The notes: generated by a model not told the origin, from the letters alone. Shown: positions 8,715 to 40,869, counted from the stretch's first letter. The stretch: DNA of 64,000 nt from Candidatus Eiseniibacteriota bacterium (GCA_029262235.1 JAJCZU010000002.1:1142927-1206926), one strand, 5' to 3'. Numbers and translations: made by a program.

Positions 8715-8716
8715 CC

Positions 8717-8745: not shown

Positions 8746-8788
8746 ATGGGCAACCTTTTCCTGAGAAGCAGCCGGAGGGGCTAACGGA

Positions 8789-15419: not shown

Positions 15420-15439
15420 TTCAATAAGGGTTTCACCAC

Positions 15440-16762: not shown

Positions 16763-16770
16763 AAAGCAAC

Positions 16771-17565: not shown

Positions 17566-17586
17566 ACCGGAGCTTCGGTTCATCTC

Positions 17587-18558
17587 ATGAAACCCTCCCG
17601 CCTCGGCGTCATTGGAGTCGGAATCTGGGGACGCAATCACGCCCGCGTTCTGGCCGGCCTGGCCGATGCGGAGCTGGTCGGCCTGTACGACCCGGACGAG
17701 GCCCGCGCCCGCGAAATTGCGAACGAACACGGCTGTCAGGCATTCGCGTCACTCGCGGATCTCGTCGAACGCACGGAGGCCGTCGTTGTCGCCGCTCCCA
17801 CGACCCACCATCATTCCATCACACTCGAATCCCTTGCCGCCGGAAACCACGTTCTCGTCGAAAAACCCATCGCATTTACTCTGACCGAGGCGGACGAAAT
17901 GATCGCGGCCGCCGAGCGCGCCGATCGCGTGCTGGCCGTGGGCCACCTGGAACGCTTCAACCCGTCGATCGAGGCGCTGATCGAAACGACGAACAATCCG
18001 CGCTTCGTCGAAGTTCACCGCCTCTCGCCATTCTCGGTCCGCGGACTCGACGTGTCGGTCGTGCTCGATCTCATGATTCACGATATCGATGTCCTTCTCC
18101 GCGTCGTGCAGTCCCCGGTTGCCGAGGTCCGCAGCGTCGGCGTCCCCGTCCTGAGCCGCGCGATCGATATCGCGAACGTACGGCTTCGCTTCGAGAACGG
18201 ATGCGTCGCCAACGTCACGGCAAGCAGGATCTCGCTCTCGAAGACACGCAAGATCCGCATCTTCGAACCGGACCGCTATATATCCGTCAACTCACAGACG
18301 CAGGAGATCGTGGCGTATCGAAGAACGGGGCCGTCACCCGCGCCCGAGAAGCTGACGGCGGAAGCGTTCGGAAAGCTCGTCGAAAGACAGAACCTCTCCC
18401 GTCCTCAGGAAGAACCGCTGCAGCGCGAGCTCAGCTGCTTTCTTGCCGCAGTACGCGGCGAAGAGAAGCGCATCGTCCCGGGCCGGGAGGGACGGGATGC
18501 GCTGGCCGTAGCGCTGCGCATTCTCGACGAGATGGAGCTTCGAGAAGAGATCGGATGA
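17587..18558 (+). CDS. Gfo/Idh/MocA family NAD(P)-dependent oxidoreductase (possible GnnA-like UDP-GlcNAc 3-dehydrogenase)
   Basis: N-terminal Rossmann motif IGVGIWG and EKP motif; located between lpxA and lpxB. Confidence 0.8.
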   Translation: MKPSRLGVIGVGIWGRNHARVLAGLADAELVGLYDPDEARAREIANEHGCQAFASLADLVERTEAVVVAAPTTHHHSITLESLAAGNHVLVEKPIAFTLTEADEMIAAAERADRVLAVGHLERFNPSIEALIETTNNPRFVEVHRLSPFSVRGLDVSVVLDLMIHDIDVLLRVVQSPVAEVRSVGVPVLSRAIDIANVRLRFENGCVANVTASRISLSKTRKIRIFEPDRYISVNSQTQEIVAYRRTGPSPAPEKLTAEAFGKLVERQNLSRPQEEPLQRELSCFLAAVRGEEKRIVPGREGRDALAVALRILDEMELREEIG

Positions 18559-19193
18559 GGGAAGGCGCGGGGACGATGCGACCGGAAAGCGCCGCGCGCG
18601 AGAGCGGATCTGCGATGGAGAGCCTGGGCCGGTTTCTGTTCCGGCACCGAAGCCTGACTCCCGTTCCCCTCGTGATCCTATTGCTCGTACTGGCGCGGCC
18701 GACGATGATGACGGCACTCTCCGCCGTACCGTTCTGGCTCGCAGGCGCCGCCGTCCGGCTGTCGGCCCTCCGTTTCATCGGGGGGGCCTCCCGCTCCACG
18801 AATCTGGCTCCCGGCGAAATCGTCACGGCCGGCCCGTTCGGCGTCGTTCGAAACCCGCTCTACGTGGGCAACTTTCTCCTGACAACCGGATTCGCCGTCT
18901 TCTCCGGGCACTGGCTCTTCGCCCTCGTGCCGCTGCTTCTGTTTCCGATCCAGTACGTGCCCGTCGTCCGCGCGGAAGAGGCCGAACTGGGCCGACGATT
19001 CCCCGCCGCGTTTGACGACTATTCCCGGACCGTCCCGCGCTGGTTCCCGCGGCGCCCTGCATCTCTCATTGTGTTCGGTGACGCCCCGCGCACATGGCGC
19101 GAAGCCGCCCGGATCGAAAGAAGCACGATCCGCTCCGTGCTCGCGCTCATTATCGCACTTGCACTCGTGCAGTCCTGGCGGGGAACCCACTGA
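18555..19193 (+). CDS. ICMT/PEMT-family membrane methyltransferase (possible LmtA-like lipid A methyltransferase)
   Basis: Multi-TM protein with the C-terminal RNPLYVG...EEAELGRRF...Y...VPRWFP motif typical of the isoprenylcysteine carboxyl methyltransferase family; ATG at 18555 overlaps the upstream stop (ATGA). Confidence 0.65.
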   Translation: MREGAGTMRPESAARESGSAMESLGRFLFRHRSLTPVPLVILLLVLARPTMMTALSAVPFWLAGAAVRLSALRFIGGASRSTNLAPGEIVTAGPFGVVRNPLYVGNFLLTTGFAVFSGHWLFALVPLLLFPIQYVPVVRAEEAELGRRFPAAFDDYSRTVPRWFPRRPASLIVFGDAPRTWREAARIERSTIRSVLALIIALALVQSWRGTH

Positions 19194-20356
19194 TGCCGAG
19201 GAACGTCCTGATCGTCGCGGGAGAGGCCTCAGGGGATCTCTACGGCGCGGAACTGGCGCGCGAATTGAAGCGTATCGAACCTGATATCGTCCTCTGGGGA
19301 ACCGGCGGCGAGAAGATGGAACGGGAGGGAGTCGAACTTCTTTATACAACAAGAGAGTTCGCGGTTCTCGGATTCGCGGAAGTGTTCGCCCGGCTCCCTT
19401 TCTTTTTTCGCGCGATGAAACACATGAAACAACTCGTGCGCGAGAGACGACCGTCCGTGTTCGTCCCGATCGACTACCCCGGCTTCAACATGCGCCTCGC
19501 TCGTTTTGTTTCGGATGAACACCACCCGGTTGCCTATTTCGTAAGTCCCCAGATCTGGGCCTGGGGCTGGGGTCGCGTCCCGAAAATCCGCTCGATCGTG
19601 AGCCGCATGATCGTTACGTTTCCGTTCGAGGAAGACATTTATCGCAAAGAGAACATTCCGGTAACCTACGCAGGGCATCCGCTCATCGATCTCGCGAAGC
19701 CGGAACTCCCCGCCGCGGCGTTTCGCGCGAAGCTCGGGATCGAGGATGACCTCCCGATCATCGCGCTGTTCCCGGGCAGCCGGACACACGAGGTGGACTC
19801 ATTGCTTCCCGTAATGATGGAGGCCGTTTCTGTCATGCGTGCGAAGGGCGAGCGTTTTCACGCCGTTCTGGGGGCCGCGCCCACGGTTGACGACGCCGCG
19901 TACGATGCGATCCTGGGGGACGATGGCAGCTCCCCGATTCTCCGCGTTCGCGACGCGACGTACGACCTGCTCGCCGCCGCCCGCTTCGCGATTCTGGCGT
20001 CCGGCACGATGACCGTCGAGGCCGCGGTTCTTCGAACGCCGATGATTATCATCTATAAAGTAAAATTGCTGTCCTACCTGCTTGGCCGACTCCTCGTGCG
20101 CGTCAATCATATCGGTATGGTCAATATTCTCGCGGAGAAGCGTGTCGTGCCCGAACTCCTGCAGGGCGAAGCGAACGCGGAGAACGTCGTAAAGATCGCC
20201 GGCCGCTGGCTGCGGCACGACGACACTCTTTCGGAAATCCATACGGAACTCGATCGCGTACGCCTGCTTCTTGGCGGCGGCGGAGCTTCCCGCAGGGCGG
20301 CCGAAGCCGTCATCGCGGTTGCGGACACCCCGCGCGAAACGGACGGGACTTCGTGA
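19193..20356 (+). CDS. lpxB: lipid-A-disaccharide synthase
   Basis: LpxB-like (GT19) sequence; ATG at 19193 overlaps the upstream stop. Confidence 0.85.
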   Translation: MPRNVLIVAGEASGDLYGAELARELKRIEPDIVLWGTGGEKMEREGVELLYTTREFAVLGFAEVFARLPFFFRAMKHMKQLVRERRPSVFVPIDYPGFNMRLARFVSDEHHPVAYFVSPQIWAWGWGRVPKIRSIVSRMIVTFPFEEDIYRKENIPVTYAGHPLIDLAKPELPAAAFRAKLGIEDDLPIIALFPGSRTHEVDSLLPVMMEAVSVMRAKGERFHAVLGAAPTVDDAAYDAILGDDGSSPILRVRDATYDLLAAARFAILASGTMTVEAAVLRTPMIIIYKVKLLSYLLGRLLVRVNHIGMVNILAEKRVVPELLQGEANAENVVKIAGRWLRHDDTLSEIHTELDRVRLLLGGGGASRRAAEAVIAVADTPRETDGTS

Positions 20357-21030
20357 AACCCGTCGTGCGCACGATTCTGTTTTATGCCGGTACGCTTCTC
20401 GGCCCCTGGCTCATCCGCCTGCTCGGCGCCACGTGGCGTGTGCAGTGGGTCGGCGAGGAGAGCCACAAAGCGTGCCGCGCGGAAGGGCGGAACGTCATTC
20501 TCGCGATCTGGCACGGCCGGCTGCTTCCGCTTGCCTACACGCATCGCAGGCGCAACATTCAGATACTGATCAGCCGCCATCAGGACGGTGAGATCATCCG
20601 GCGTGTCACGAAGAGTCTCGGGAACGGCTCGGTGCGCGGGTCGACGGGCAAGGGAGGGGCGCGCGCGATTCTGCAGATGGCGAAGAGGGCGAAGGAGGGG
20701 TGCGACCTCGCGATCACTCCGGACGGGCCGCGCGGACCGCGTGAGGTTGCGCAGGCGGGCGTGCTTCGGATTGCGCAGCGCGCCGGTATCCCCGTCCTTC
20801 CGCTCACGAGCGCCTCGCGCACGAAGCGCGTCTTGTCGTCGTGGGACGGCTTCCAGATTCCGGCGCCGTTCACGCGCCTTGTCGTTGCGTACGGGACGCC
20901 GATCGAGATTCCGGACGACCTCGACGACACGCAGTTCGAGAGAGCGCGGCTGCAGGTCGAAAGCGCGATGCGGGATCTCACGGAAACAGCGGACCGCATT
21001 GCCGGAGGCGAGTCCGAGGCAGCACCATGA
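20353..21030 (+). CDS. DUF374 / lysophospholipid-acyltransferase-like protein
   Basis: 225 aa; small conserved protein of the type usually found between lpxB and kdtA; ATGA-type overlap on both sides. Confidence 0.65.
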   Translation: MKPVVRTILFYAGTLLGPWLIRLLGATWRVQWVGEESHKACRAEGRNVILAIWHGRLLPLAYTHRRRNIQILISRHQDGEIIRRVTKSLGNGSVRGSTGKGGARAILQMAKRAKEGCDLAITPDGPRGPREVAQAGVLRIAQRAGIPVLPLTSASRTKRVLSSWDGFQIPAPFTRLVVAYGTPIEIPDDLDDTQFERARLQVESAMRDLTETADRIAGGESEAAP

Positions 21031-22271
21031 CGGACGGCCTTTACCGTATCGCGACGACTATCGCCGATCCTCTTGCGCCGCTGATCGCCCGCCTGTTCGT
21101 GCGCGATCCCCGCGAACGAAACGAGCGGCTCGGACGATACGGCGCAGATTCGCTTCCCGCGCGCCCGCTCTGGATCCATGCAGCGTCGGCCGGCGAGATG
21201 ACGGGCGTCGAACCTGTGCTCGACGAAATCGCGCAACTTGCGGCGGCGCCGTCCGTGATCGTCAGCGCGACGACGAGAACCGGACGCGCACGCGCCGGAC
21301 AGTTCACGCAGCCCGCACGCGTTGTGTTCGCCCCCGCCGACTTTCCCGGATGCGTGAGGCGTGCCACCGGCGCTCTGGCGCCGCGCGCTCTTCTGCTGGT
21401 GGAAACGGAACTCTGGCCGAACCTGATTCGCGTCGCCCACGAAGCGGGGTTCCCGATCGCGATCGGGAACGGGAGAATCACGGCGCGCTCCCACAGTCGT
21501 ATGAAACGGGCCGGCGCCCTGTATCGAAACACGGTGTCCCGGCTTGCGGCCGTCGGATGCCAGACCGAGGACGATGCCGCGCGATTTCGTGAGTGGGGAG
21601 CGCAGCCGGACCGTGTATTCGTGCACGGCAACACGAAAGCCGACCAGAAGGCGCCATCGAGTGCTTCCCCGATCGCGCGACAGCCCGGAGAACGGTGGAT
21701 TCTTTTCGCCTCGATTCGCCCCGGTGAAGAACGTGCTGTTGCCGAGGCCATCGCAATAGTCGCGGGCAGGGATCGATCGGCGCGTTTCGTTGTCGGCCCG
21801 CGCCATCCCGATCGTTCCCCCTTTCTGCGAACCGCACACGATCACGGATTCCGTCGATGGAGTGAACTCAAGGAGGGCGCGGGCTCCGGAGAGGCGAGTC
21901 CCGAGCGGATCGTGCTCGACACGATCGGCGACCAGGCCTCGTTTTTCGGGGCGATGGATGCAGCCTTCATTGGCGGGTCGCTCGCGGATCACGGCGGCCA
22001 CAATCCACTCGAAGCCGCGCGGGTCGGAACGCCCGTACTGTTCGGTCCGCACATGCAGAACTGCCGTGACCTCGCCGACGCGCTCCTTGCAAGCGGAGGG
22101 GGACGCGAGATCCGGAACGGCACGGAGCTGGGCGAAACGATTCTGACATTGCTCCGGGACGATCCCGCGCGCGATGCCATGGCAGAGGGAGCACGTACCA
22201 TGTTCTCGTCGAACCGCGGCGCCTCTCGCCGACTCGTTCAGGAACTCGTGGCCCGGGAGGTGCTGGCGTGA
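21027..22271 (+). CDS. waaA: 3-deoxy-D-manno-octulosonic acid (Kdo) transferase
   Basis: KdtA-like sequence (WIHAASAGE...); ATG at 21027 overlaps the upstream stop. The ORF-track start at 20841 is rejected. Confidence 0.85.
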   Translation: MTDGLYRIATTIADPLAPLIARLFVRDPRERNERLGRYGADSLPARPLWIHAASAGEMTGVEPVLDEIAQLAAAPSVIVSATTRTGRARAGQFTQPARVVFAPADFPGCVRRATGALAPRALLLVETELWPNLIRVAHEAGFPIAIGNGRITARSHSRMKRAGALYRNTVSRLAAVGCQTEDDAARFREWGAQPDRVFVHGNTKADQKAPSSASPIARQPGERWILFASIRPGEERAVAEAIAIVAGRDRSARFVVGPRHPDRSPFLRTAHDHGFRRWSELKEGAGSGEASPERIVLDTIGDQASFFGAMDAAFIGGSLADHGGHNPLEAARVGTPVLFGPHMQNCRDLADALLASGGGREIRNGTELGETILTLLRDDPARDAMAEGARTMFSSNRGASRRLVQELVAREVLA

Positions 22272-23326
22272 AGCCGATCGGGGGAGTGGCGGGGCACGCG
22301 ATGAGCGCGATCTACGCGGCCGCCATTCGTATGCGACACACTCTGTACGACCGAGGGTTGCTGCCCGTTCGCACGCTTCCGGTTCCGGTCTGGAGCGTCG
22401 GCAATCTGACCGTGGGGGGAACGGGGAAGACACCGGTGACCGCATTTCTCGCGGCCGCGCTTCACGCGCTCGGCGAGCGCCCGGCGATTCTCTCGCGCGG
22501 CTATGGACGCCGGGACGAGGGAAAGCGCGTCGTTGTCCCGACGGACGAAGACGCGGGAAGACTCGACGCCGCGCTCTTCGGCGACGAGCCGATTCTTCTT
22601 CGCCGCCGTCTCCCCGACACTCCGATCATTCTGGACGCCGATCGATTCGGCGCGGGCGTTTACGCGTGCCGCGAGTACGAACCTGATCTCATTCTGCTCG
22701 ACGACGGCTTTCAGCATCGCAATCTCGCCCGCGCCCGCGAACTCCTCGTGCTGAACGGCGCCGCTCCCTTCGGAAACGGCCGCCTTCTTCCCGCGGGAAC
22801 ACTTAGAGAACCTGTGAGTCGCGGCCGCACGGCTGACTGGCACCTCGTGAACGAGACGGGCGGACTCTCGCCCGCATGCGAAGAGACGCTCGACTCCGCC
22901 GGTTTCCAAAGCCCGCGCGCCCGGTTTCGGTACGTGGCGAGCCGCGTCATTCTGCCGGACGGGGGCGAAGTGGATCCGTTACAATGGGGCACGCGCCCGG
23001 TACTGGCATGCAGCGGGATCGGCAATCCCGATTCTTTTCTGTCCCTTCTCCGGCGCTCTGACTTCCGTACCGCGGGTCATCGGACGTTCCGCGACCATCA
23101 CAGGTTCACGCAGAGCGAACTCGCGACCCTGTCCTCGGAAGCGCGCGCAGCAGGGGCCGATGTTCTGATGACGGAGAAGGACTGGCTCCGGATCCCGGAC
23201 AGCGCGAGACAGCGGTTCGCCGTTCACGCGTTGTCGGTCGATCTCGCGTGGACCGAGGGAGAGGATGCATTCCGTGCCTGGATAGCGGGCGCGCTGAAGG
23301 GAGATCGGTTTGGCGGCTCATCGTAG
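22268..23326 (+). CDS. lpxK: tetraacyldisaccharide 4'-kinase
   Basis: P-loop VGNLTVGGTGKTP; GTG start overlapping the kdtA stop. Confidence 0.85.
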   Translation: MKPIGGVAGHAMSAIYAAAIRMRHTLYDRGLLPVRTLPVPVWSVGNLTVGGTGKTPVTAFLAAALHALGERPAILSRGYGRRDEGKRVVVPTDEDAGRLDAALFGDEPILLRRRLPDTPIILDADRFGAGVYACREYEPDLILLDDGFQHRNLARARELLVLNGAAPFGNGRLLPAGTLREPVSRGRTADWHLVNETGGLSPACEETLDSAGFQSPRARFRYVASRVILPDGGEVDPLQWGTRPVLACSGIGNPDSFLSLLRRSDFRTAGHRTFRDHHRFTQSELATLSSEARAAGADVLMTEKDWLRIPDSARQRFAVHALSVDLAWTEGEDAFRAWIAGALKGDRFGGSS

Positions 23327-24926
23327 CGACTTTCTCGTCCTCGGCAGCGGGATCGCGGGCCTCGTGTTCGCGATCCGGGCCGCGAAGGCGGGTACGGTAT
23401 GCATCGTAACGAAAAAGCGCAGCCTCGAATCGAACACGAACTACGCGCAGGGCGGGATCGCGGCCGTACTCGACCCGAAGGACTCGTTCAAACTTCATGT
23501 CAAAGACACGCTGATCTGCGGCGAAGGGCTTTCCGATGAACGCTCCGTCCGCAAGATCGTGGAAGAGGGACCGGCGCTCGTGCGCGGGCTGGCCGAATGG
23601 GGCGTTCGCTTTTCGCAGACCGACGGGGAGTTCGACCTCGGCCGTGAAGGCGGCCATTCGAAGCGCCGGATCGCCCATGCGAAGGATACGACCGGGCGCG
23701 AAGTCGAGCGCGCGCTCCTCGCCGAAATCAAACGCCATCCCCGTATAAAAATGTTTGAGTATCATCATGCGTTCGAACTCGTGCGGAACGACCACGGCGA
23801 AATCTGGGGCGCGCATACACTCGACTTGTCGAACGGACGTCTCGCTACGTTTCTCGCCCGCAAAACGCTGCTCGGCACGGGAGGCGCAGGCAAAGTCTAC
23901 GTCTACACCACGAATCCCGATATCGCCTCCGGCGACGGCTTCGCGATGGCGTACCGCGCGGGCGCGCGGCTTTCGAACCTCGAGTTCGTGCAGTTCCATC
24001 CCACGTGCCTCTACCACCCGAAGGCGAAATCGTTCCTGATCTCCGAGGCGGTCCGCGGCGAAGGCGCGATCCTTCGCACACTCGACGGCAAGCCGTTCAT
24101 GCAGCGGTATCACAAGCTGAAAGATCTCGCCCCGCGCGATACCGTGGCACGCGCCATCGACCAGGAGATGAAAACCCGGGGAGAGCGCCACGTCCTTCTC
24201 GACCTGTCGAGCATGACAGCCGAACGGATCAAGAGCCGCTTCCCGAACATTCACAAGAAATGCTTTTCGCTCGGTATCGACATTACGAAAGAACCGATAC
24301 CCGTCGTCCCCGCGGCGCACTACATGTGCGGCGGCGTCAACACCGATCACAAGGGCCGCACTTCCGTTCCGCGGCTCTTCGCATGCGGCGAAGTCTCCCA
24401 CACGGGAGTGCACGGGGCGAACCGTCTCGCTTCGAACAGCCTGCTCGAAGCGCTCGTCTACTCGGTCAGCGCCGCGGAGGAAGCCACACGCACACTCGAC
24501 ACGGCTGCCTTCCCCGGCGTCTACACGAAACCGCCGAAGCGCCGCGTCGTAAAACGAAGCCGCGTGAGCATCAGCCACAACTGGGACGCGATCCGCAATC
24601 TCATGTGGGACTACGTCGGCATCGTCAGAAACGAAGTCTATCTTCGCAAGGCAGCGCAGAAGCTGGCGCCGATCCGGGCCGAGGTCGAGGAACTGTACGA
24701 ACGGCACGCGCTCATGGGCGACCTCGTGGAGCTTCGCAACATCGCCCTCGTCGGGGAGCTCATCATCAAGTGCGCGTCCCGTCGCAAGGAAAGTCGCGGA
24801 CTCCATTTCATGGAAGACTATCCGCGTCGCCTGAAGGGAAAGGCGAAGAATACGGTCGTCTTCAAGCGGGTGAAGAAAACCGGGGCGGCCGGCACTGCAG
24901 GAAAGAAGGGAGGAAGGCGCGCATGA
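23310..24926 (+). CDS. nadB: L-aspartate oxidase
   Basis: 538 aa; FAD-binding N-terminus (LVLGSGIAGL), fumarate-reductase/aspartate-oxidase flavoprotein family; TTG start. Confidence 0.8.
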   Translation: MAAHRSDFLVLGSGIAGLVFAIRAAKAGTVCIVTKKRSLESNTNYAQGGIAAVLDPKDSFKLHVKDTLICGEGLSDERSVRKIVEEGPALVRGLAEWGVRFSQTDGEFDLGREGGHSKRRIAHAKDTTGREVERALLAEIKRHPRIKMFEYHHAFELVRNDHGEIWGAHTLDLSNGRLATFLARKTLLGTGGAGKVYVYTTNPDIASGDGFAMAYRAGARLSNLEFVQFHPTCLYHPKAKSFLISEAVRGEGAILRTLDGKPFMQRYHKLKDLAPRDTVARAIDQEMKTRGERHVLLDLSSMTAERIKSRFPNIHKKCFSLGIDITKEPIPVVPAAHYMCGGVNTDHKGRTSVPRLFACGEVSHTGVHGANRLASNSLLEALVYSVSAAEEATRTLDTAAFPGVYTKPPKRRVVKRSRVSISHNWDAIRNLMWDYVGIVRNEVYLRKAAQKLAPIRAEVEELYERHALMGDLVELRNIALVGELIIKCASRRKESRGLHFMEDYPRRLKGKAKNTVVFKRVKKTGAAGTAGKKGGRRA

Positions 24927-25777
24927 CGGACGTGCTCGATCGACTTCCCGCCGTGGCCGGACGCTTCTACCCCTCGGACCCGGCGGAGCTTCGCGAAGAC
25001 ATCGCGGCGTTTCTCGCCGAAGCGGACGAGCAGGCCGAAGCGGACGCGGGCGCCAGAACCATCGCCATCGTTTCGCCGCACGCCGGATACGTTTTCTGCG
25101 GGGGAGTGGCCGCGCATTCCTATCGAGAAATCGTCGGCAAGTCGTTCGCACGCGTTGTCGTGCTCTCACCCGCGCACACGATGTCCGTTTCGGGTGTCGC
25201 GCTGCATCCCGCGGGATCGTTCCGCACGCCGCTCGGCACCGTGCCGATCGACGAGGCGGGAACCGCCGCGCTCCTCATGCGCGCGCCCGGGTTCTTTCAA
25301 ATCGACCCGGAACCGCACCGGCTCGAGCACGGAATCGAGACGCAGCTCCCGTTCCTGCAGCAATCACTCAAAGGCTCTTTCGCGCTCGTTCCTTTGATCA
25401 TCGGCGCCCACGACCTCGCGTTCGCGGAGCATCTCGCGCGGTATCTCTCCGAGACATTCGACGCAGAAGACACACTTTATATCGCCAGTTCCGACCTCTC
25501 TCACTTTCATCCGTACGAAATCGCCAATCAGATCGACGGCCTCCTGCTGGAGCTCCTCGAAGAAATGGATCTTGTAAAACTGTCACGCGGTCTCGAGCTC
25601 GGCGAGATCGAAGCTTGCGGAGCCGGCGCCATTTTGACCACGGCGCTTCTCGCACGCGAGCAGAGCGGTTCGCAATGCCGTTTCCTGCACTACGAGAATT
25701 CGGGCGATCGCGGCGGAGACCGGGATGAGGTGGTCGGCTACTCGTCGTTTGCATGGACCATGGGGGATGGCGAATGA
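24923..25777 (+). CDS. MEMO1-family protein (AmmeMemoRadiSam system protein B-like)
   Basis: About 284 aa starting MTDVLDRLPAVAGRFYP; ATG overlaps the nadB stop (ATGA). The longer ORF-track start at 24005 is rejected. Confidence 0.75.
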   Translation: MTDVLDRLPAVAGRFYPSDPAELREDIAAFLAEADEQAEADAGARTIAIVSPHAGYVFCGGVAAHSYREIVGKSFARVVVLSPAHTMSVSGVALHPAGSFRTPLGTVPIDEAGTAALLMRAPGFFQIDPEPHRLEHGIETQLPFLQQSLKGSFALVPLIIGAHDLAFAEHLARYLSETFDAEDTLYIASSDLSHFHPYEIANQIDGLLLELLEEMDLVKLSRGLELGEIEACGAGAILTTALLAREQSGSQCRFLHYENSGDRGGDRDEVVGYSSFAWTMGDGE

Positions 25778-26310
25778 TTCCGCCCGATGACAGGCGCACG
25801 CTGCTCCGTATCGCCGCAGAGGCGGTCGCGTCCGCGCTTCGGGGCGAAACGTACGAACCGGAGACTCCGCCCGAAGGCGCCCTTTGCGAGCGCCGGGGCG
25901 CTTTCGTGACACTCGAACGAAACTCCCTGCTTCGCGGCTGCATCGGGCGCATCGCGAGCGACGAGCCCCTCTACGCGCTCATCCCGCACATGGCGCACGA
26001 TGCGGCGTTTCGGGATCCGCGGTTTCCGCCGGTTACGGAAAAGGAACTCCCGCAGCTCTCGTTCGAAATTTCGGCGCTCGGCCCGCCGCGCGCGATCGCT
26101 GACCCCGAAGAGATCCGACTCGGGATCGACGGACTCATCGTGCGGCACGGATCGCGAACCGGACTGCTGCTCCCGCAGGTTGCGGAAACGTTCGGCTGGA
26201 CGAAGCGACAGTTCCTGGAAGAGACGTGTGAGAAGGCCGGACTTGCGCCCGCAATGTGGAGAGAAACCGCCACAGTGGAAGCATTCGAAGCGGAGGTTTG
26301 GAAATCATGA
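25774..26310 (+). CDS. AMMECR1-domain protein (AmmeMemoRadiSam system protein A-like)
   Basis: About 178 aa with an AMMECR1-like core (CERRGAFVTL...LRGCIG); ATG at 25774 overlaps the upstream stop. Confidence 0.75.
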   Translation: MIPPDDRRTLLRIAAEAVASALRGETYEPETPPEGALCERRGAFVTLERNSLLRGCIGRIASDEPLYALIPHMAHDAAFRDPRFPPVTEKELPQLSFEISALGPPRAIADPEEIRLGIDGLIVRHGSRTGLLLPQVAETFGWTKRQFLEETCEKAGLAPAMWRETATVEAFEAEVWKS

Positions 26311-27119
26311 CAGCACAGGACAGACCGATCGTCACGCTCCTGACGGACTTCGGCGAGGGCTCCTATGTCGCGAGCGTCAAGGGCGTGCTTCTCAGCATTA
26401 CGCGCTCGATACAAATCGTCGACATCACACACTCTCTCATGATGGGCGACGTGGGGCCGGCAGGGTACGTGCTCTCGAATACGTCACGCTATTTTCCCCC
26501 GGGCACCATTCATCTCGCTGTGGTTGACCCCGGTGTGGGCATGGATCGCCTGCCCCTGATCCTGCGCGCGGACGGCCATTATTATGTAGGGCCGGACAAC
26601 GGCCTTTTCGGTGAGGTACTCCGCACCGCGGTCGAAGTGAACGCGTTTCATGTCCGCGAGGAGAAGTGGCTGGCGCAGCGCATCAGCCCGACGTTTCACG
26701 GCCGCGACCTGTTTGCGCCGGTTGCGGCGCGGCTGGCGGGCGGCGCGGATCCGGGGGACCTGGGGGACGAAATCGCTCCGGCAGACCTGATCCCGTCCCC
26801 GATTCCGACGCCTGTGCGGACACGTGACGACCTCACGGGCCAGATCGTGTGGGCCGACAGCTTCGGCAATCTCATGACGAATCTCACGGAGAAGATGGTC
26901 GAGGAATGGTGCGGCGAAAATACGTATCAGGTCGTGCTCGGCTGGGAGCGGATTCGAAACCGGATCCGCACGTTCCAGGACACGAGCAAAGGGAGCCTCG
27001 CGTTTCTGTTCGGCAGCTGGAACACACTCGAGGTCGTGGTTTCCGAGGGAAGCGCGGCAACGCGGCTCGGCGTATCGATCGGCGAACCGGTTCGACTGGA
27101 GCGGGTTGTTGCCGGTTGA
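26307..27119 (+). CDS. SAM hydroxide adenosyltransferase / DUF62 (fluorinase-chlorinase fold SAM hydrolase)
   Basis: N-terminal IVTLLTDFGEGSYVASVKGV and YYVGPDNGLFG motifs characteristic of DUF62; ATG at 26307 overlaps the upstream stop. Confidence 0.7.
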   Translation: MTAQDRPIVTLLTDFGEGSYVASVKGVLLSITRSIQIVDITHSLMMGDVGPAGYVLSNTSRYFPPGTIHLAVVDPGVGMDRLPLILRADGHYYVGPDNGLFGEVLRTAVEVNAFHVREEKWLAQRISPTFHGRDLFAPVAARLAGGADPGDLGDEIAPADLIPSPIPTPVRTRDDLTGQIVWADSFGNLMTNLTEKMVEEWCGENTYQVVLGWERIRNRIRTFQDTSKGSLAFLFGSWNTLEVVVSEGSAATRLGVSIGEPVRLERVVAG

Positions 27120-28740
27120 CAACGTGACAATTCGCGTGGAGCCGGTCCCCGCCCTCACGCCGCCGCTCGTACGGCGCTACTGTGCCGGCGATTCCTCACT
27201 GACGCCGCTGTACGCGCACGCCCCGTTCGACGCCTCGCGTCCCCCCGTCTCACCTGCCGGGGGACGCGCTCTCGACGACGACGTCATCCAGCGCATGCTG
27301 AAGCTGAACCGTGAGACCGGCGCCTCCGCCCGCTCACTTGCCAACTGCGAAAAACTGCGCGACCCGGCCGTTCATGCCATGCTCGCGGGACAGCAGCCGG
27401 GACTGCTTCTCGGTCCGCTATTCGCTCTCTATAAGATTGTCACTCTGGTCGCCCGGTGCCGCGCCTGGGAAGCGCAGTCGGGCCAGTCGTACGTGCCCGT
27501 TTTCTGGATCGCGTCGCACGATGCGGACCTCGCGGAAATCGATCACGTCTATCTGCCGGGGCAGGGCGGGGAACCCGAAAAACTCCGCTACCCGTGGACC
27601 GAAGTTCCACGGCAGCAACTGAGCGCCTATGAGATCACCGATTCGGACTGGCGCGCGTTCACTGAAGCCCTGCGTGAACGATTGCCGGATAACGATTTTC
27701 GCGAGGACGCTCTCGCGCGCTTCACGCCATCCCGCTTTCCCGCATCTCCTACGCATGCGTTCGCAGAGGCCGTACATGCTCTGCTGCCGGACGCGGGGAT
27801 CGTATGCTTCGACGGACGCGATGCGGAAACATGCGAGGCGGGGCGTTCGTTTCTCGCACGCACGCTGCGGAACCCGGCGCGCACCCTCGCGTCATGGCGG
27901 GAGGGCGAGGAGACCGTGCGGAACGCGGGGATAGCGCCGCCGCTCGACCTTGCGGAATCGCGATTCCCGCTGTTCCTCGTGGAAAACAGCGTGCGCCATC
28001 CGCTGTCATGGAACGGTTCTCGATTCGAAACGTCGGCCGGGTCTTTCGAACCCGAGACACTGGCGAAGGGCGTGGAGGAGGGAACCCGGACGGTGTCTCC
28101 GAACGCGGGCCTGCGTCCGGTTCTGCAGGACCTGCTGTTCGCGACCGCGGCGACGATCGCCGGTCAGTCCGAACTCGCCTACCATCCGCAACTCGCCTCT
28201 CTCTATGAAAGCGCCGGAGTCGCGCGTCCGCTTCTCGTTCCGCGTGCGAGCCTTTCGCTCGTTCACTTTCGGGCCTACGACCAGCTCGCGGACTTCGGAC
28301 TTACGATCGCGGATCTCAGAGAATCCCCCGACACGGCACAGGAGGGAGCGGCCGGCGACGCACACGCGGCAAGCCGCAGCCGCTTTACGCAGACGATCGA
28401 GGACGCCTGGCGCCGGTTCGCGGAAGAAGTCGCGTCCGCGTCGGACACGAGCCCCGTCCCCGGCGCCGACGACACGGAGTCGCAGTTCCTGAAAGCCGCC
28501 GCGCGATCGGCGGACAAGTTCGTCAAGCAGGCCGACCGCGCCGGGGAAAACAGATCCCGCAAGATTCACAAGCTGACGCAGGAACTCGCACCGAAGGGCA
28601 CGGCGCAGGAATTCGTATGGTCGCTGCTTCCGTTTCTGGCGCGCTACGGACCGGACTTCGCGACCCGCATCGCAGAGGCTTTGCCTGAGGAATCGACCGA
28701 GCATATGATGATGACAGTAGACCCGAGAGGAGCATCATGA
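27106..28740 (+). CDS. bshC: putative bacillithiol biosynthesis cysteine-adding enzyme
   Basis: 544 aa with BshC-like N-terminal blocks (QQPGLLLGPLFALYK...PVFWIASHDAD); adjacent and coupled to bshA; start codon uncertain (TTG 27106 or GTG 27124). Confidence 0.6.
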   Translation: MLPVDNVTIRVEPVPALTPPLVRRYCAGDSSLTPLYAHAPFDASRPPVSPAGGRALDDDVIQRMLKLNRETGASARSLANCEKLRDPAVHAMLAGQQPGLLLGPLFALYKIVTLVARCRAWEAQSGQSYVPVFWIASHDADLAEIDHVYLPGQGGEPEKLRYPWTEVPRQQLSAYEITDSDWRAFTEALRERLPDNDFREDALARFTPSRFPASPTHAFAEAVHALLPDAGIVCFDGRDAETCEAGRSFLARTLRNPARTLASWREGEETVRNAGIAPPLDLAESRFPLFLVENSVRHPLSWNGSRFETSAGSFEPETLAKGVEEGTRTVSPNAGLRPVLQDLLFATAATIAGQSELAYHPQLASLYESAGVARPLLVPRASLSLVHFRAYDQLADFGLTIADLRESPDTAQEGAAGDAHAASRSRFTQTIEDAWRRFAEEVASASDTSPVPGADDTESQFLKAAARSADKFVKQADRAGENRSRKIHKLTQELAPKGTAQEFVWSLLPFLARYGPDFATRIAEALPEESTEHMMMTVDPRGAS

Positions 28741-29855
28741 GAATCGGCATCACATGCTATCCGAGTGCGGGCGGCTCAGGCGTCATCGCGACGGAACTCG
28801 GCCGTTCGCTCGCGGGCCGCGGCCACGACATTCACTTCATCAGCTACTCGCGTCCGTTCCGCCTTCCGGAGGAGGACGACCACATCCGCTTTCACAAAGT
28901 GAAAACGGTCACCTACCCGCTCTTCAAGTATCCGCCGTACTCACTGGCGCTCGCTGTTCGCATGGCCGAGGTGGCGCGCCGGGAAAAGCTCGATCTGTTT
29001 CACGTGCACTACGCGATTCCTCACGCCACGAGTGCGCTCCTGGCCAACATGATTCTCGAGCCGCACCGCGTCGGCGTCGTGACGACACTCCACGGCACGG
29101 ACATCACACTCGTCGGCAGCGACGAAAGCTTCTTCGAAATCACGAAGCTCAGCATCGAGCGCTCCGACGCCGTTACGGCGGTTTCGGATTTCCTTGCACG
29201 GGAGACGCAGCAGAAACTCGCCGTAAAGCACCCGATTGACGTGATTCCGAACTTCGTCGACGCCCACATGTTCGATACGCATGCCAGTCCGGCGATCCGC
29301 GCCGAAATCGGGCTCGAGGACGGACCCGTGCTGATGCACATTTCGAACTTCCGCAAAGTGAAGAACGTGAAAGATGTCATCCAGCTGTTCGCGGCAGTCC
29401 AGGAATCGACGGGAGCGCAGCTGGTACTCGTGGGCGACGGGCCCGAGCGTATCCCCTCGCGTATCCTTGCGGAAGAGCTCGGCGTTCTCGACCGCATTCT
29501 GTTTCTCGGGAATCGCGTGGAAGTGGGGCAGATTCTGCCGCTCGCGGATGTCCTGCTGCTGCCGAGTACGGTGGAAAGCTTCGGCCTCGTCGCTCTCGAA
29601 GCGATGGCGTGCGGAATCCCCGTCGTCGGATACGACGGCGGCGGCCTTCCCGAGGTGGTTCGGCACGGCACAGACGGCATGCTGGCCCCGCTCGGGAGCG
29701 TGGAAAGAATGATTGAAATGACTCTTGAGCTGCTACAGAATCCAGAGAAACGGGAGGCGATGGGCAAGGCCGCGCGGGAACGGGCCGTGCGTGACTTCGC
29801 GACCGCGTCGATCACGGCACAGTATGAAGCCGTTTACGAACGGGTTCTGCGATGA
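28737..29855 (+). CDS. bshA: N-acetyl-alpha-D-glucosaminyl L-malate synthase (GT4)
   Basis: N-terminus [22 protein letters not shown] matches the BshA-type GT4 signature; 372 aa. Confidence 0.8.
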   Translation: [372 protein letters not shown]

Positions 29856-30229
29856 GCCTGGATCGAATTCTGGACGAGCTCGTCGAGCGGGAACCGCGCT
29901 ATCATCGAGACGCATACATTTTCGTGCTCGAAGCGATCACGTTCACGCAGGCGAAGTTCGTGGAGCCCCGGCATGTTTCGGGGCAGCAGCTTCTGGACGG
30001 TATTCGCGAGTACGCGAGGGAAATTTACGGGCCCACGGCGTGCATGGTGTTCGAACACTGGGGCGCGACCGAGACCCTCGATTTCGGCAGAATGGTTTAC
30101 GCTCTGATCGAAACGGGCCAGGTGAGCAAGCAGCCGGAAGACTCTCTCGAGGATTTTCGAGAGTACTACGATTTCAAGAAAGTGTTCGAAGAGCAGTACA
30201 AGTACATCGACGAGTCTTCTTCGCCCTGA
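29852..30229 (+). CDS. small conserved hypothetical protein
   Basis: 125 aa; ATG overlaps the bshA stop; no recognisable catalytic motif. Confidence 0.5.
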   Translation: MSLDRILDELVEREPRYHRDAYIFVLEAITFTQAKFVEPRHVSGQQLLDGIREYAREIYGPTACMVFEHWGATETLDFGRMVYALIETGQVSKQPEDSLEDFREYYDFKKVFEEQYKYIDESSSP

Positions 30230-30257
30230 ACGCAGTCATCCCGATGGAGCCACTCGA

Positions 30258-31328
30258 ATGGGCGTTCTCGATTTATATTTGCGGTATCAGCGCGCCGTTC
30301 GCCGCGATCGGAACGAAACGATTTCGTTTCGCAAGCAACTCGAGAATCCGAGACGCGTCACCGTGCTCATTCCGGGAGACGACCGCATGCCGGCCGTGGT
30401 CGTACCCGCGCTTCGTCTTCTCCGCGCCCATCATCCCCATGTTCGGATCGTGCTCGTCGCGGGCCCGGACAACATCGACGCGATTCGCAAGGAGAAGATG
30501 GCGGACAAATCCATCGTCTTTCATCGCAAGCGCGGCACGACGCAGATCGGTGAGATCAAGCGCGTCGCGAAAGAAGTCAGCAAGCTCGCTCCCGAACTGC
30601 TGCTCCTGTTCGATCCGGAAAACGAACCGTCGCTCCTGGCGCTTGCCGAGGCCACGGGAACACCGCTTCGCGTCGGCTTCGGAGACGGCGCCCACTATCC
30701 TTATCTGAACTTCCAACTGGCCCCGCCTGAAAAAGAACTCTATCTCGCGGATGCGTTTCTGAAGCTCGTCGGCTCGCTCACGGGCGAGTTCGTCGACTTT
30801 CTGGACGATCGCGTCCGCCTTCGCATTCCGGAAGCGGATGTCACGCGCGCCACCCGTCTTCTTCATTTCTGGCAGCCGAAATCGGACAAGCTCCTCTTTG
30901 CGATCGAGCCGCCCGCGGGCGGACGAGACGCCGACATCCAGAAGTACGCGGGCATTGCGAGGCTTCTCTTAAAAGCCTACGACGCACGGATCATGGTGCT
31001 CACCGAACCGCGCGAGAAGTCTGCAGGAGAAGCGCTCGAGCAGAAGCTGGGCGCGATCGAACCGTATCGGGCACCGGTAGAGGGGATGCACGAATCGATC
31101 GCGTTCCTCTCGCGGGTCGATCTCTTCGTAGGCCCGAACGCGCCCCTGTTTCATCACGCCGTCGCGATGGGCACGCCCGCTGTCGGGCTCTTCACGGGGA
31201 ACGACGCGTGCTGGTGGTATCCGCCTCACGACGTGCGCGCGCGCGCCCTTGATCTCGGCCGCAAGATGACGGAAGAGACGTTTCTGAAGGCGGTGCAGGA
31301 AGTCGGCGCGCCGGAGGACGCTTCTTGA
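30258..31328 (+). CDS. glycosyltransferase family 9-like protein (divergent heptosyltransferase-like)
   Basis: C-terminal block DLFVGPNAPLFHHAVAMGTPAVGLFTGND resembles the GT9 nucleotide-sugar-binding motif; the N-terminal half is divergent; start uncertain. Confidence 0.6.
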   Translation: MGVLDLYLRYQRAVRRDRNETISFRKQLENPRRVTVLIPGDDRMPAVVVPALRLLRAHHPHVRIVLVAGPDNIDAIRKEKMADKSIVFHRKRGTTQIGEIKRVAKEVSKLAPELLLLFDPENEPSLLALAEATGTPLRVGFGDGAHYPYLNFQLAPPEKELYLADAFLKLVGSLTGEFVDFLDDRVRLRIPEADVTRATRLLHFWQPKSDKLLFAIEPPAGGRDADIQKYAGIARLLLKAYDARIMVLTEPREKSAGEALEQKLGAIEPYRAPVEGMHESIAFLSRVDLFVGPNAPLFHHAVAMGTPAVGLFTGNDACWWYPPHDVRARALDLGRKMTEETFLKAVQEVGAPEDAS

Positions 31329-33205
31329 ACGATCTCCGGCGTTTGTTTGCCTACGTGAAACCGTGGTGGAAGCTTCTGCTCGGCGGGCTCTTCTGCACGT
31401 TCCTTTTCGCGCTCTTTTCCGGCATCTCGATCGGCATGATTCTGCCGTTCACGAAAATCCTGTTTGAACAGGAGATCCCCCCGGCAGGCATCACGGTCGC
31501 CGATCCCGCCGGCATTTCCGAAGAGGCGCTCTTTCCGCAGATCGAAGTATGGAAAGAAACCGGGCGCGCCTGGTTCATGGGTCTCTTCGCGGATGCCGAC
31601 CCGAAAGCCGCGCTTCTGCGTGTGTGCATCGGCGTGTTCGTAATCTTTCTGATCAAAGGACTCTTCAATTACTATCGCCAGATCTTCATGGCCACGCTCG
31701 AAGAGCGCGTGATCAAGGACATCCGCGACCATCTCTATCATCATATGGAACGGCTCCCGCTTTCGTATTTCGAGAAGGAACGGACCGGTGTCATCATTTC
31801 GCGTATTACGAACGACGTACAACTCGTACGGGAAATGGTCGGCAACCTGTTCTCGGCGTTCACACAGAATGCCTCGCTTCTGCTGATCTTTCTCGTCGTC
31901 GCGCTGATCATCAACTGGCAGATGGCGATGCTCTCGTTCCTCGTGTTTCCGCTGATCGCGCTTTTCACGGCTAAAATTTCGAAGAGGCTCAGGCGGCACA
32001 GCGCACGTTTTCAGGAAGACATGGGGCGGATTACGAGCACGCTGCAGGAGACCATCGCCGGCATCCGGATCGTGAAGGCGTTCGGCATGGAGCGCTTCGA
32101 AGAGGCGAAGTTCGCGAAACAAACGGAGAGTTATCTGCAGTCGTTCATTCGCTTCAAGCGAACCTCGATCCTCGCGAGCCCGATTTCCGAACAACTCGGC
32201 GCGCTCGGCGCCATCATCGTGCTCTGGTACGGCGGGAACCAGGTCCTCGACGGAAACAGGCTCGCCCCCGAGGAGTTCTTTCTCTTTCTCGCCGCGGTGC
32301 TCAACATGATGCAGCCGATCAGAAAGCTGAGCCACGTGAACACCGTCGTGCAGCAGGGCCTCGCCGCGGCGCGACGGATCTTTTTCGTGCTCGACACACC
32401 GATCGAACCGCGATCCGCGGGGGGCGCGCGGATCGAAGGCGTGCACGACGCGATCGCGTTCGAGAACGTTTCGTTTTCGTACGACAACGCCGCGCCGGCT
32501 CTCAGCGACATCACGCTTCGCATCGAGGCCGGTACGATGGTCGCGCTGGTCGGACCGTCGGGGGCGGGGAAGTCGACGCTCGCCGACCTCGTGGCGCGCT
32601 TTCACTCTCCCACGTCCGGGAGGATCACGATCGACGGCCTCGATCTTCAGGAAATCGAAATCGAATCGCTTCGGGAGAACATGGGCATCGTCACGCAGGA
32701 GGTCATCCTTTTCAACGACAGCGTGAGAGACAACATCGCGTACGGAAAGAGCGAGATCCCCGAGGAGACGCTTCGTCATGCGGCACGCGCCGCGAGCGCG
32801 GACGAATTCATCACGAACCTGCCGGACGGGTATGAAACGATCGTGGGCGACCGCGGTGTTCGGCTTTCGGGCGGCGAGCGTCAGCGCCTTGCGATTGCGC
32901 GCGCGATTCTGAAAGACCCGCCGATTCTGATTCTCGACGAGGCCACATCGAATCTCGACACGCAATCGGAAGCGCTCGTGCAGGCGGCCGTCGAGAATCT
33001 CGTGAAAGATCGCACGACGCTCGCGATCGCCCATCGGCTCTCGACCATCCTGCGCGCCCACCGGATCCTCGTTCTCGACCACGGACGAATCGTCGAAGAG
33101 GGGACACACGAAGACCTCGTGGGGCGGGGCGGTCTCTATTCCCGCCTGTTCGAAATGCAGTTTGCGGAGAGTGATCGCGCCCGGACCAGCCCGCCCGCGC
33201 GATGA
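31325..33205 (+). CDS. msbA: lipid A export ABC transporter (fused permease/ATPase)
   Basis: 626 aa; N-terminal 6-TM exporter domain; Walker A GPSGAGKST, signature LSGGERQR, Walker B ILILDEATS. Confidence 0.85.
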   Translation: MNDLRRLFAYVKPWWKLLLGGLFCTFLFALFSGISIGMILPFTKILFEQEIPPAGITVADPAGISEEALFPQIEVWKETGRAWFMGLFADADPKAALLRVCIGVFVIFLIKGLFNYYRQIFMATLEERVIKDIRDHLYHHMERLPLSYFEKERTGVIISRITNDVQLVREMVGNLFSAFTQNASLLLIFLVVALIINWQMAMLSFLVFPLIALFTAKISKRLRRHSARFQEDMGRITSTLQETIAGIRIVKAFGMERFEEAKFAKQTESYLQSFIRFKRTSILASPISEQLGALGAIIVLWYGGNQVLDGNRLAPEEFFLFLAAVLNMMQPIRKLSHVNTVVQQGLAAARRIFFVLDTPIEPRSAGGARIEGVHDAIAFENVSFSYDNAAPALSDITLRIEAGTMVALVGPSGAGKSTLADLVARFHSPTSGRITIDGLDLQEIEIESLRENMGIVTQEVILFNDSVRDNIAYGKSEIPEETLRHAARAASADEFITNLPDGYETIVGDRGVRLSGGERQRLAIARAILKDPPILILDEATSNLDTQSEALVQAAVENLVKDRTTLAIAHRLSTILRAHRILVLDHGRIVEEGTHEDLVGRGGLYSRLFEMQFAESDRARTSPPAR

Positions 33206-40867: not shown

Positions 40868-40869
40868 GA

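What the first reader, a model, noticed from the sequence alone, without database searches (positions are those of the whole stretch)
23310..27119. Memo-like and AMMECR1 proteins coupled to a DUF62 SAM-cleaving enzyme instead of a radical SAM partner
Three genes joined by ATGA overlaps (starts at 24923, 25774, 26307) encode a MEMO1-like protein, an AMMECR1-domain protein and a DUF62/SAM hydroxide adenosyltransferase-like enzyme, directly behind nadB. Memo and AMMECR1 homologues are the A/B components of the uncharacterised AmmeMemoRadiSam system, whose third member is normally a radical SAM enzyme. No CxxxCxxC radical SAM protein is encoded anywhere in this window; the neighbouring SAM-utilising enzyme is instead a SAM hydrolase-type protein. 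This looks like an undescribed variant of a system whose function is unknown, sitting inside an LPS/bacillithiol operon.
Basis: partly seen in the sequence, partly recalled or inferred. Interest (0 to 1): 0.7.

Follow-up and report, generated by a model that had tools for sequence, protein, structure and literature searches.

The report
Memo, AMMECR1, SAM-hydrolase genes in housekeeping operon
The three genes are real and sit in this order throughout one uncultured bacterial lineage (Candidatus Eisenbacteria), but they are three links in a roughly 20-gene housekeeping operon, and nothing found here shows that the SAM hydrolase replaces the usual radical SAM partner, so this is most likely an ordinary lineage-specific gene order.

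Summary
Genes at 24923-25777, 25774-26310 and 26307-27119 (+ strand) encode a Memo protein (AmmeMemoRadiSam protein B), an AMMECR1 protein (protein A) and a DUF62 SAM hydrolase. They are joined by ATGA overlaps, lie behind nadB and ahead of bshC/bshA, and the 64 kb window holds no radical SAM gene.

- The trio is intact in seven separate Eisenbacteria-clade lineages, with protein identity down to 47-56%. However, the whole lipid A / nadB / bacillithiol / msbA block of about 20 genes is conserved with it.
- Overlaps just as tight join clearly unrelated genes in that block (lpxK-nadB, DUF62-bshC, bshC-bshA).
- Outside this clade the link does not recur. None of 24 Memo loci from other genomes has a DUF62 gene. 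Of 80 DUF62 loci from metagenomes, one has AMMECR1 nearby, and it is not in the same operon.
- Lacking an adjacent radical SAM gene is common: 5 of 15 other Memo-AMMECR1 pairs sampled have none in their flanks.
- Other Eisenbacteria carry a canonical radical SAM-Memo-AMMECR1 cluster.
- The DUF62 protein keeps the hydrolase Asp-Arg-His triad.

I could not test whether these genomes encode the radical SAM enzyme elsewhere. That remains the decisive test.

The parts
14367..23326 (+). Upstream part of the same tightly packed operon: lpxD, lpxC-fabZ fusion, lpxA, GFO/IDH/MocA oxidoreductase, PEMT-like methyltransferase, lpxB, DUF374, kdtA and lpxK.
   Evidence: Pfam hits. The same gene order is found in L027, L028, L110, L111, L114 and L122.
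23310..24926 (+). nadB, L-aspartate oxidase. It overlaps the end of lpxK by 17 nt and the Memo start by 4 nt (ATGA).
   Evidence: NF006567 654 bits (cutoff 629) and TIGR00551 563 bits. The overlap was read.
24923..25777 (+). Memo-family protein of 284 aa (AmmeMemoRadiSam system protein B). The MEMO1 metal ligands are conserved as H53, H85 and C232.
   Evidence: PF01875 197 bits and TIGR04336 251 bits. Alignment to MEMO1 7kq8. Ligands H49/H81/C244 are taken from PMC11081632.
25774..26310 (+). AMMECR1-domain protein of 178 aa (AmmeMemoRadiSam system protein A). The LRGCIG cysteine (C56) is conserved.
   Evidence: PF01871 176 bits and TIGR04335 175 bits, cutoff 99. Alignment to PH0010 1vaj. Position.
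26307..27119 (+). DUF62 / SAM hydroxide adenosyltransferase-type SAM hydrolase of 270 aa. The D74-R81-H131 triad is conserved.
   Evidence: PF01887 164 bits plus PF20257 67 bits. The best solved relative is PH0463, 2wr8, E = 4e-38. The three residues sit in invariant columns of a 34-sequence alignment.
27106..29855 (+). bshC (27106-28740) and bshA (28737-29855), bacillithiol biosynthesis. bshC overlaps the end of DUF62, and bshA overlaps bshC by 4 nt.
   Evidence: TIGR03998 292 bits and TIGR03999 502 bits.
29852..34206 (+). Downstream part of the operon: a Minf_1886-family protein, a GT9-like protein, an msbA-type ABC exporter and a GT9 heptosyltransferase.
   Evidence: The same order is found in relatives, some of which carry an HSP20-Lon insertion that the window lacks.

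Best explanation
The three genes are co-transcribed, translationally coupled members of one long housekeeping operon. That operon runs from lipid A synthesis through nadB, Memo, AMMECR1, DUF62 and bshC/bshA to msbA and heptosyltransferases, and it is fixed in one Candidatus Eisenbacteria lineage.

Memo is a metal enzyme with a His/His/Cys site. AMMECR1 has a conserved Cys in its LRGCIG motif. Together they form the usual two-protein core of the AmmeMemoRadiSam system. I infer that they work with a radical SAM enzyme encoded elsewhere in the genome, or alone as in eukaryotes.

The DUF62 protein is a standard SAM hydrolase. I infer that it cleaves SAM to adenosine and methionine using the Asp-Arg-His water-activating triad, and that it prefers the inactive (R)-sulfonium epimer, as its characterised relatives do. 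On that reading it is a general metabolite-repair enzyme, and its position beside AMMECR1 is inherited gene order rather than a dedicated partnership.

Shown here: family membership, conserved catalytic residues, operon structure, and the distribution of the adjacency. Inferred: the enzymatic activities, and a radical SAM partner elsewhere.
For: Family and residue evidence.

Operon-wide conservation. All seven sampled lineages carry the same block of about 20 genes. They are the window/L001, L027, L028 (GCA_016930695.1), L110 (GCA_024276995.1), L111, L114 and L122 (GCA_016867715.1). Identity of the trio to the window (47-56%) falls in the middle of the operon's range of 35-82%.

Overlaps are not specific to the trio. 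lpxK-nadB, DUF62-bshC (11 nt in five relatives) and bshC-bshA (up to 4 nt) overlap as well. By contrast, nadB-Memo has a 23-98 nt gap in relatives. No internal promoter or terminator signal rises above chance.

No recurrence elsewhere.
- 0 of 24 Memo loci from GTDB genomes have DUF62 within up to 10 kb.
- Of 80 DUF62 loci from JGI metagenomes, none has Memo or a radical SAM gene. One has AMMECR1, 2.3 kb away across two opposite-strand ORFs.
- No DUF62 fusion to Memo or AMMECR1 appears among the top 120 hits of either family, whereas Memo-AMMECR1 fusions are common.

Local absence of radical SAM is common. Of the 15 other distinct Memo-AMMECR1 pairs sampled, 10 have an AmmeMemoRadiSam-type radical SAM gene in the flanks and 5 do not. 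The 5 are L004, L006, L010 (a complete Sulfurimonas genome), L118 and L121.

DUF62 enzymes from S. acidocaldarius, H. volcanii and Salinispora are (R)-SAM-specific hydrolases (bioRxiv 10.1101/2025.08.29.672840).
Against: - The trio is never broken in the seven lineages, although the operon has changed elsewhere through an HSP20-Lon insertion or deletion.
- AMMECR1 and DUF62 overlap by 4 nt, or are 3 nt apart, in every member.
- Both Memo and DUF62 show the same sharp identity gap between clade members (at least 48%) and everything else (at most 45%). That is compatible with co-inheritance as a unit.
- I could not show that these genomes encode a TIGR04337 radical SAM enzyme anywhere. None of the top 120 relatives of an Eisenbacteria radical SAM protein lies on a contig with the length of a known clade contig.
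- The DUF62 protein scores below the narrow NCBIfam (R)-SAM hydrolase equivalog cutoffs (167 against 350, and 150 against 470), so its exact substrate is an inference.
Confidence: 0.62

Rival explanations
1. In this lineage DUF62 is a true functional partner of Memo/AMMECR1. Either it replaces the radical SAM enzyme by cleaving SAM through nucleophilic rather than radical chemistry, or it removes a SAM-derived by-product or the inactive SAM epimer for the system.
For: - The order Memo-AMMECR1-DUF62 is invariant, with overlapping or near-abutting genes, in seven lineages down to about 50% identity.
- No radical SAM gene lies within the 64 kb window or within 10 kb in any relative.
- Both enzyme types use SAM.
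Against: - The conservation cannot be told apart from that of the whole 20-gene block.
- DUF62 is coupled just as tightly to bshC.
- The link has not arisen independently anywhere else, and no gene fusions were seen.
- DUF62 keeps the standard hydrolase triad, with no sign of a new function.
- A SAM hydrolase produces adenosine, not a 5'-deoxyadenosyl radical, so it cannot chemically stand in for a radical SAM enzyme.
- Pairs without a local radical SAM gene are common.
Confidence: 0.13
2. The operon context is functional for Memo/AMMECR1, with or without DUF62. On this reading the pair modifies an envelope lipid, a lipid A or isoprenoid carrier, or takes part in low-molecular-weight thiol (bacillithiol) metabolism, which would explain its fixation between lipid A genes and bshC/bshA.
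For: - The pair is embedded between lpxK/nadB and bshC/bshA in all seven lineages.
- A PEMT-like methyltransferase and DUF374 lie in the same operon.
- From my own memory of Burroughs et al. 2019 (JBC 294:10211), which is not held in the library: the authors proposed nucleotide-base or aliphatic isoprenoid modification for Memo systems.
- MEMO1 crystallised with glutathione next to its iron site (PMC11081632).
Against: - The operon mixes clearly unrelated functions (NAD synthesis, lipid A, a thiol cofactor, and Lon/HSP20 in some members), so position carries little functional information.
- Memo-AMMECR1 pairs in other phyla sit in unrelated contexts.
- No bshB gene is present in the window.
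Confidence: 0.15

Closest known systems
AmmeMemoRadiSam system (NCBIfam TIGR04335 protein A, TIGR04336 protein B, TIGR04337 radical SAM enzyme). The AMMECR1 / ring-opening-dioxygenase / radical SAM neighbourhood was first noted by Balaji and Aravind 2007 (PMC2034487).
   Same: The window's Memo and AMMECR1 proteins pass the protein B and protein A models. They are adjacent in the usual B-then-A order seen in L003-L015. They keep the metal ligands and the LRGCIG cysteine. GenBank already names the close relative NNE10258.1 'AmmeMemoRadiSam system protein B'.
   Different: No radical SAM gene lies in 64 kb or within 10 kb in six relatives. The pair sits inside a lipid A/bacillithiol operon. The canonical Eisenbacteria clusters (L007, L117) look different: a radical SAM protein with a twin-arginine-like N-terminus, a fused Memo-AMMECR1, and a spermidine-synthase-like membrane protein.
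DUF62 SAM hydroxide adenosyltransferases / (R)-S-adenosyl-L-methionine hydrolases: PH0463 (PDB 1wu8, 2wr8), TTHA0338 (2cw5), Saci0719, and the HVO_0781 and Salinispora tropica enzymes.
   Same: Both Pfam domains are present. The protein is about 40-45% identical to DUF62 proteins of other phyla. The Asp-Arg-His triad and the motifs TDFG, VVDPGVG, GPDNG and TFHGRD are invariant.
   Different: It scores below the narrow NCBIfam equivalog cutoffs. The clade has a one-residue deletion after TDFG. The genomic context is Memo/AMMECR1 and bshC, rather than, for example, the triphosphate-tunnel-metalloenzyme/NMN-adenylyltransferase operon of S. acidocaldarius.
SAM-dependent halogenases: fluorinase FlA (1rqp) and chlorinase SalL (2q6i).
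   Same: Same fold and superfamily.
   Different: The fluorinase model TIGR04507 scores 62 bits against a cutoff of 400. The hydrolase triad is retained. The PDB matches to halogenases are much weaker (E = 1e-18 to 1e-22) than those to PH0463.
Eukaryotic MEMO1 and AMMECR1.
   Same: The same two domain families operate without a dedicated neighbouring radical SAM gene. The MEMO1 iron ligands are conserved.
   Different: The eukaryotic genes are unlinked. The window's AMMECR1 scores higher on the bacterial system-A model (175 bits) than on the archaeal/eukaryote-type model TIGR00296 (121 bits).

Membership tests
AmmeMemoRadiSam system | The AMMECR1-type protein A passes TIGR04335. | tested here: met
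   175 bits against a cutoff of 99.
AmmeMemoRadiSam system | The Memo-type protein B passes TIGR04336. | tested here: met
   251 bits against a cutoff of 26.
AmmeMemoRadiSam system | A dedicated radical SAM enzyme (TIGR04337 type, GCNxxCxFCQNW motif) lies next to the A/B genes. | tested here: not met
   No CxxxCxxC ORF and no tblastn match anywhere in the 64 kb window. None lies within 8-10 kb in L027, L028, L110, L111, L114 or L122.
AmmeMemoRadiSam system | The radical SAM enzyme is encoded somewhere in the same genome. | not testable with these tools
   Only the window and flanks of up to 10 kb are readable.
DUF62 / SAM_HAT (SAM hydrolase) family | Both the SAM_HAT_N and SAM_HAT_C domains are present. 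| tested here: met
   PF01887 164 bits (cutoff 26.3) and PF20257 67 bits (cutoff 25.5).
DUF62 / SAM_HAT (SAM hydrolase) family | The water-activating Asp-Arg-His triad is present (D68/R75/H127 of PH0463; the numbering is from my memory of Deng et al. 2009). | tested here: met
   D74, R81 and H131 align to the PH0463 residues and sit in invariant columns across 34 homologues.
(R)-SAM hydrolase equivalogs (NF058624, NF053629) | The score reaches the curated equivalog cutoff. | tested here: not met
   167 against 350, and 150 against 470. These are narrow Thermus and Pyrococcus models, so the result limits the naming, not the likely chemistry.
(R)-SAM hydrolase equivalogs (NF058624, NF053629) | Stereoselective hydrolysis of (R,S)-SAM. 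| not testable with these tools
   This needs an enzyme assay.
SAM-dependent halogenases (fluorinase) | The score reaches the TIGR04507 cutoff. | tested here: not met
   62 bits against a cutoff of 400.
Memo family (PF01875) | The domain is present and the His/His/Cys metal site of MEMO1 is conserved. | tested here: met
   197 bits. H53, H85 and C232 align with MEMO1 H49, H81 and C244.
Single transcription unit (operon) containing the trio | Same strand, overlapping or abutting genes, and no internal terminator. | tested here: met
   Overlaps read. The terminator scan found fewer sites than expected by chance and none at the trio's gene junctions; the only site within 23310-27119 is a minus-strand match inside nadB. 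Transcription itself was not tested.

The most novel reading that the evidence does not exclude
In this Eisenbacteria lineage the Memo/AMMECR1 pair has lost its radical SAM enzyme and works instead with the DUF62 enzyme. That would make it a non-radical, nucleophilic SAM-cleaving variant of the AmmeMemo system, possibly acting on an envelope or thiol metabolite made by the surrounding operon.
Probability: 0.1. Interest if true: 0.65.

Novelty: new member of a known kind. Interest (0 to 1): 0.3.

Why it matters
The function of the Memo/AMMECR1/radical SAM system is unknown, although it is found in all domains of life and both human homologues are linked to disease. A natural variant that had swapped the radical SAM enzyme for a different SAM-cleaving enzyme would give a strong clue to the chemistry. 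The evidence here points to an inherited gene order within a housekeeping operon, so the finding offers little such leverage unless whole-genome searches show that the radical SAM gene is truly missing from these genomes.

Tried and rejected
1. Same-genome test for a radical SAM partner. I searched with the Eisenbacteria radical SAM protein from L007. I then compared contig lengths and GenBank accession ranges with those of the clade's DUF62 and Memo proteins. No link was found. The one promising candidate, P0219 labelled 'Gemmatimonadota', has accession MGE5190735 and so is unrelated to NNE10258/NNE10260. This is inconclusive, because only the top 120 hits are shown.

2. The genome-contig scan with the window's Memo protein returned only distant relatives, at most 37% identical. 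It did not find the source genome. It was still useful as an outgroup sample.

3. The look-up of P0241 was wasted, because that protein is identical to the window's own DUF62 protein. It did show that the sequence also lies on an NCBI contig of 1,234,040 bp, which I could not read.

4. L042, the only DUF62 locus with an AMMECR1 gene nearby, was rejected as a second instance. The two genes are 2.3 kb apart with two opposite-strand ORFs between them.

5. Burroughs et al. 2019 could not be read, so its content is cited from memory only.

6. A halogenase reading of the DUF62 protein was rejected.

7. The methionine-cycle genes metH and a homocysteine-methyltransferase/MTHFR fusion lie about 10 kb downstream on the opposite strand. 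I considered them as a SAM-related context and judged them too distant to count.


Full report
**1. Observation**

The + strand between about 14.4 and 34.2 kb is one densely packed run of genes:

| Coordinates | Gene |
|---|---|
| 14367-15419 | lpxD |
| 15440-16762 | lpxC-fabZ |
| 16771-17565 | lpxA |
| 17587-18558 | GFO/IDH oxidoreductase |
| about 18.5-19.2 kb | PEMT-like gene |
| 19094-20356 | lpxB |
| 20353-21030 | DUF374 |
| to 22271 | kdtA |
| 22268-23326 | lpxK |
| 23310-24926 | nadB |
| 24923-25777 | Memo |
| 25774-26310 | AMMECR1 |
| 26307-27119 | DUF62 |
| 27106-28740 | bshC |
| 28737-29855 | bshA |
| 29852-30229 | Minf_1886-family protein |
| 30258-34206 | GT9-like protein, msbA-type exporter, GT9 heptosyltransferase |

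- Memo passes TIGR04336 (251 bits). AMMECR1 passes TIGR04335 (175 bits, cutoff 99). DUF62 has both SAM_HAT domains (164 and 67 bits).
- The only CxxxCxxC motif in the window is in a spurious frame.
- Five AmmeMemoRadiSam-type radical SAM proteins taken from other loci find nothing in the window, best E = 0.19.
- The rest of the window is housekeeping and polysaccharide genes.

**2. Are the proteins intact?**

- The DUF62 protein is closest to PH0463 among solved structures (E = 4e-38).
- In a 34-sequence alignment, D74, R81 and H131 fall in invariant columns, as do the motifs TDFG, VVDPGVG, GPDNG and TFHGRD. These three residues correspond to the water-activating Asp-Arg-His triad of PH0463.
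- The fluorinase model scores far below its cutoff.
- Memo keeps the MEMO1 iron ligands as H53, H85 and C232.
- AMMECR1 keeps the LRGCIG cysteine, C56.
- All three look like working, typical members of their families.

**3. Source and relatives**

- The window matches a Logan metagenome contig.
- The same proteins also lie on an NCBI contig of 1.23 Mb.
- Close relatives are labelled Candidatus Eisenbacteria; one is labelled Gemmatimonadetes.
- DUF62 and Memo show the same pattern. A clade of about 20 clusters is 48-94% identical to the window, and then identity drops to 45% or less.

**4. Conservation of the adjacency**

- Six further lineages were examined, with DUF62 identity to the window of 49-57%. 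They are L027, L028 (GCA_016930695.1), L110 (GCA_024276995.1), L111, L114 and L122 (GCA_016867715.1).
- All carry Memo-AMMECR1-DUF62. All also carry the entire block from lpxC-fabZ (or lpxA, where the locus begins, in L122) to the heptosyltransferases, in the same order.
- The only difference seen is an HSP20-Lon pair after the Minf_1886 gene. It is present in five relatives and absent from the window and L027.
- Per-gene identity to the window is 47-56% for the trio, in the middle of the operon's range of 35% (bshC) to 82% (lpxC-fabZ).
- Junctions behave as follows:
  - AMMECR1-DUF62 overlaps by 4 nt or has a 3-nt gap.
  - DUF62-bshC overlaps by 11 nt in five relatives.
  - bshC-bshA overlaps by up to 4 nt.
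  - nadB-Memo has a gap of 23-98 nt everywhere except in the window.
- The coupling is therefore a property of the whole operon and not a mark of a three-gene module.

**5. Recurrence outside the clade**

- A GTDB scan gave 24 Memo loci from many phyla, 26-37% identical to the window.
  - None has a DUF62 gene within the flanks.
  - Twelve have AMMECR1 directly downstream.
  - Ten have an AmmeMemoRadiSam-type radical SAM gene in the flanks, directly upstream of Memo in nine.
- A JGI metagenome scan gave 80 DUF62 loci, 32-44% identical, with a median of 6.1 kb held.
  - None has Memo or a radical SAM gene.
  - One, L042, has AMMECR1 2.3 kb away, across two opposite-strand ORFs.
- No DUF62 fusion to Memo or AMMECR1 appears in the top 120 hits of either family. 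About half of the Memo hits are Memo-AMMECR1 fusions.

**6. Is a missing neighbour unusual?**

- No. Of the 15 other distinct Memo-AMMECR1 pairs sampled, five have no radical SAM gene in the flanks.
- Those five are L004, L006, L010 (a complete Sulfurimonas genome), L118 and L121. The last two are among the closest outgroups, at 42-43% identity.
- Eisenbacteria also carry canonical clusters. L007 and L117 encode three adjacent genes:
  - a radical SAM enzyme with an RRRFLK twin-arginine-like N-terminus;
  - a fused Memo-AMMECR1;
  - a large spermidine-synthase-like membrane protein.
- The window's Memo is no closer to those (35-36%) than to Memo proteins of other phyla.

**7. What could not be done**

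- The decisive test is whether genomes with this operon also encode a TIGR04337 enzyme. That needs whole genomes, which these tools do not expose.

**8. Interpretation**

- The most economical reading is an inherited, lineage-specific gene order inside a housekeeping operon.
- On this reading, Memo/AMMECR1 is the ordinary A/B core. The AMMECR1 / dioxygenase-like / radical SAM association has been known since 2007 (PMC2034487).
- DUF62 is an ordinary SAM hydrolase. Characterised members of the family remove the inactive (R)-epimer of SAM.
- A SAM hydrolase makes adenosine and methionine, not a 5'-deoxyadenosyl radical, so it is not a chemical substitute for a radical SAM enzyme.
- The unbroken trio across seven lineages keeps a functional link possible. 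I give that about 13%.
- I give about 15% to a role of the pair in envelope or thiol metabolism.

**9. Verdict**

The feature is real and the annotation is correct, but the claim of a new system variant is unproven. Interest is modest (0.3). It would rise if whole-genome searches showed the radical SAM gene to be absent from these genomes.

Noticed in passing
L007:8590-13563 and L117:6001-10955: The canonical Eisenbacteria AmmeMemoRadiSam clusters have three unusual features. The radical SAM enzyme has a twin-arginine-like N-terminus (MSERLEISRRRFLK...). Memo-AMMECR1 is a fused protein of 510-528 aa with a hydrophobic, signal-like N-terminus. A spermidine/spermine-synthase-like membrane protein of 700-838 aa follows. 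This radical SAM type is at least 57% identical across many phyla. That hints at an exported or membrane-associated form of the system.
   Followed up: partly
window 37394-42759 (- strand): B12-dependent methionine synthase MetH (1157 aa) lies next to a fused homocysteine S-methyltransferase/MTHFR protein (629 aa). These methionine/SAM-cycle genes are about 10 kb downstream of the DUF62 gene, on the opposite strand.
   Followed up: no
window about 18540-19193 (+ strand): A PEMT-like (phospholipid or isoprenylcysteine methyltransferase family) gene lies inside the lipid A operon between the GFO/IDH oxidoreductase and lpxB. It is conserved in all relatives. It is a SAM-dependent enzyme in the same transcription unit as the SAM hydrolase.
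   Followed up: no
window 29855-30258 compared with L028:13949-16680, L110, L111, L114 and L122: Five relatives carry an HSP20-Lon protease pair inserted after the Minf_1886-family gene. The window and L027 lack it. This is the only gene-content difference seen in the block of about 20 genes.
   Followed up: partly
window 23310-24926: nadB sits alone inside the LPS operon, with no nadA or nadC in the window. In S. acidocaldarius the DUF62 SAM hydrolase lies in an operon with an NMN adenylyltransferase. This is a second, independent DUF62/NAD-biosynthesis adjacency and may be coincidence.
   Followed up: no
window 51984-54452, 55944-58451 (+ strand) and 58534-59919 (- strand): Three large ORFs (822, 835 and 461 aa) have no Pfam match. 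They lie inside a polysaccharide/O-antigen gene cluster that includes Wzy_C, Bac_transf, and GT2 and GT4 glycosyltransferases.
   Followed up: no
window 7052-11272 (+ strand): An McsA-like UVR-motif protein, an McsB-type protein arginine kinase (ATP:guanido phosphotransferase) and ClpC lie in a row. This module is best known from Firmicutes, and here it sits in a bacterium with an outer membrane (BamA and lipid A genes).
   Followed up: no
L118:6001-8398: In one of the closest outgroups to the window's Memo, the fused Memo-AMMECR1 gene is followed by an overlapping DUF362 gene rather than a radical SAM gene. The arrangement is conserved on three contigs.
   Followed up: no
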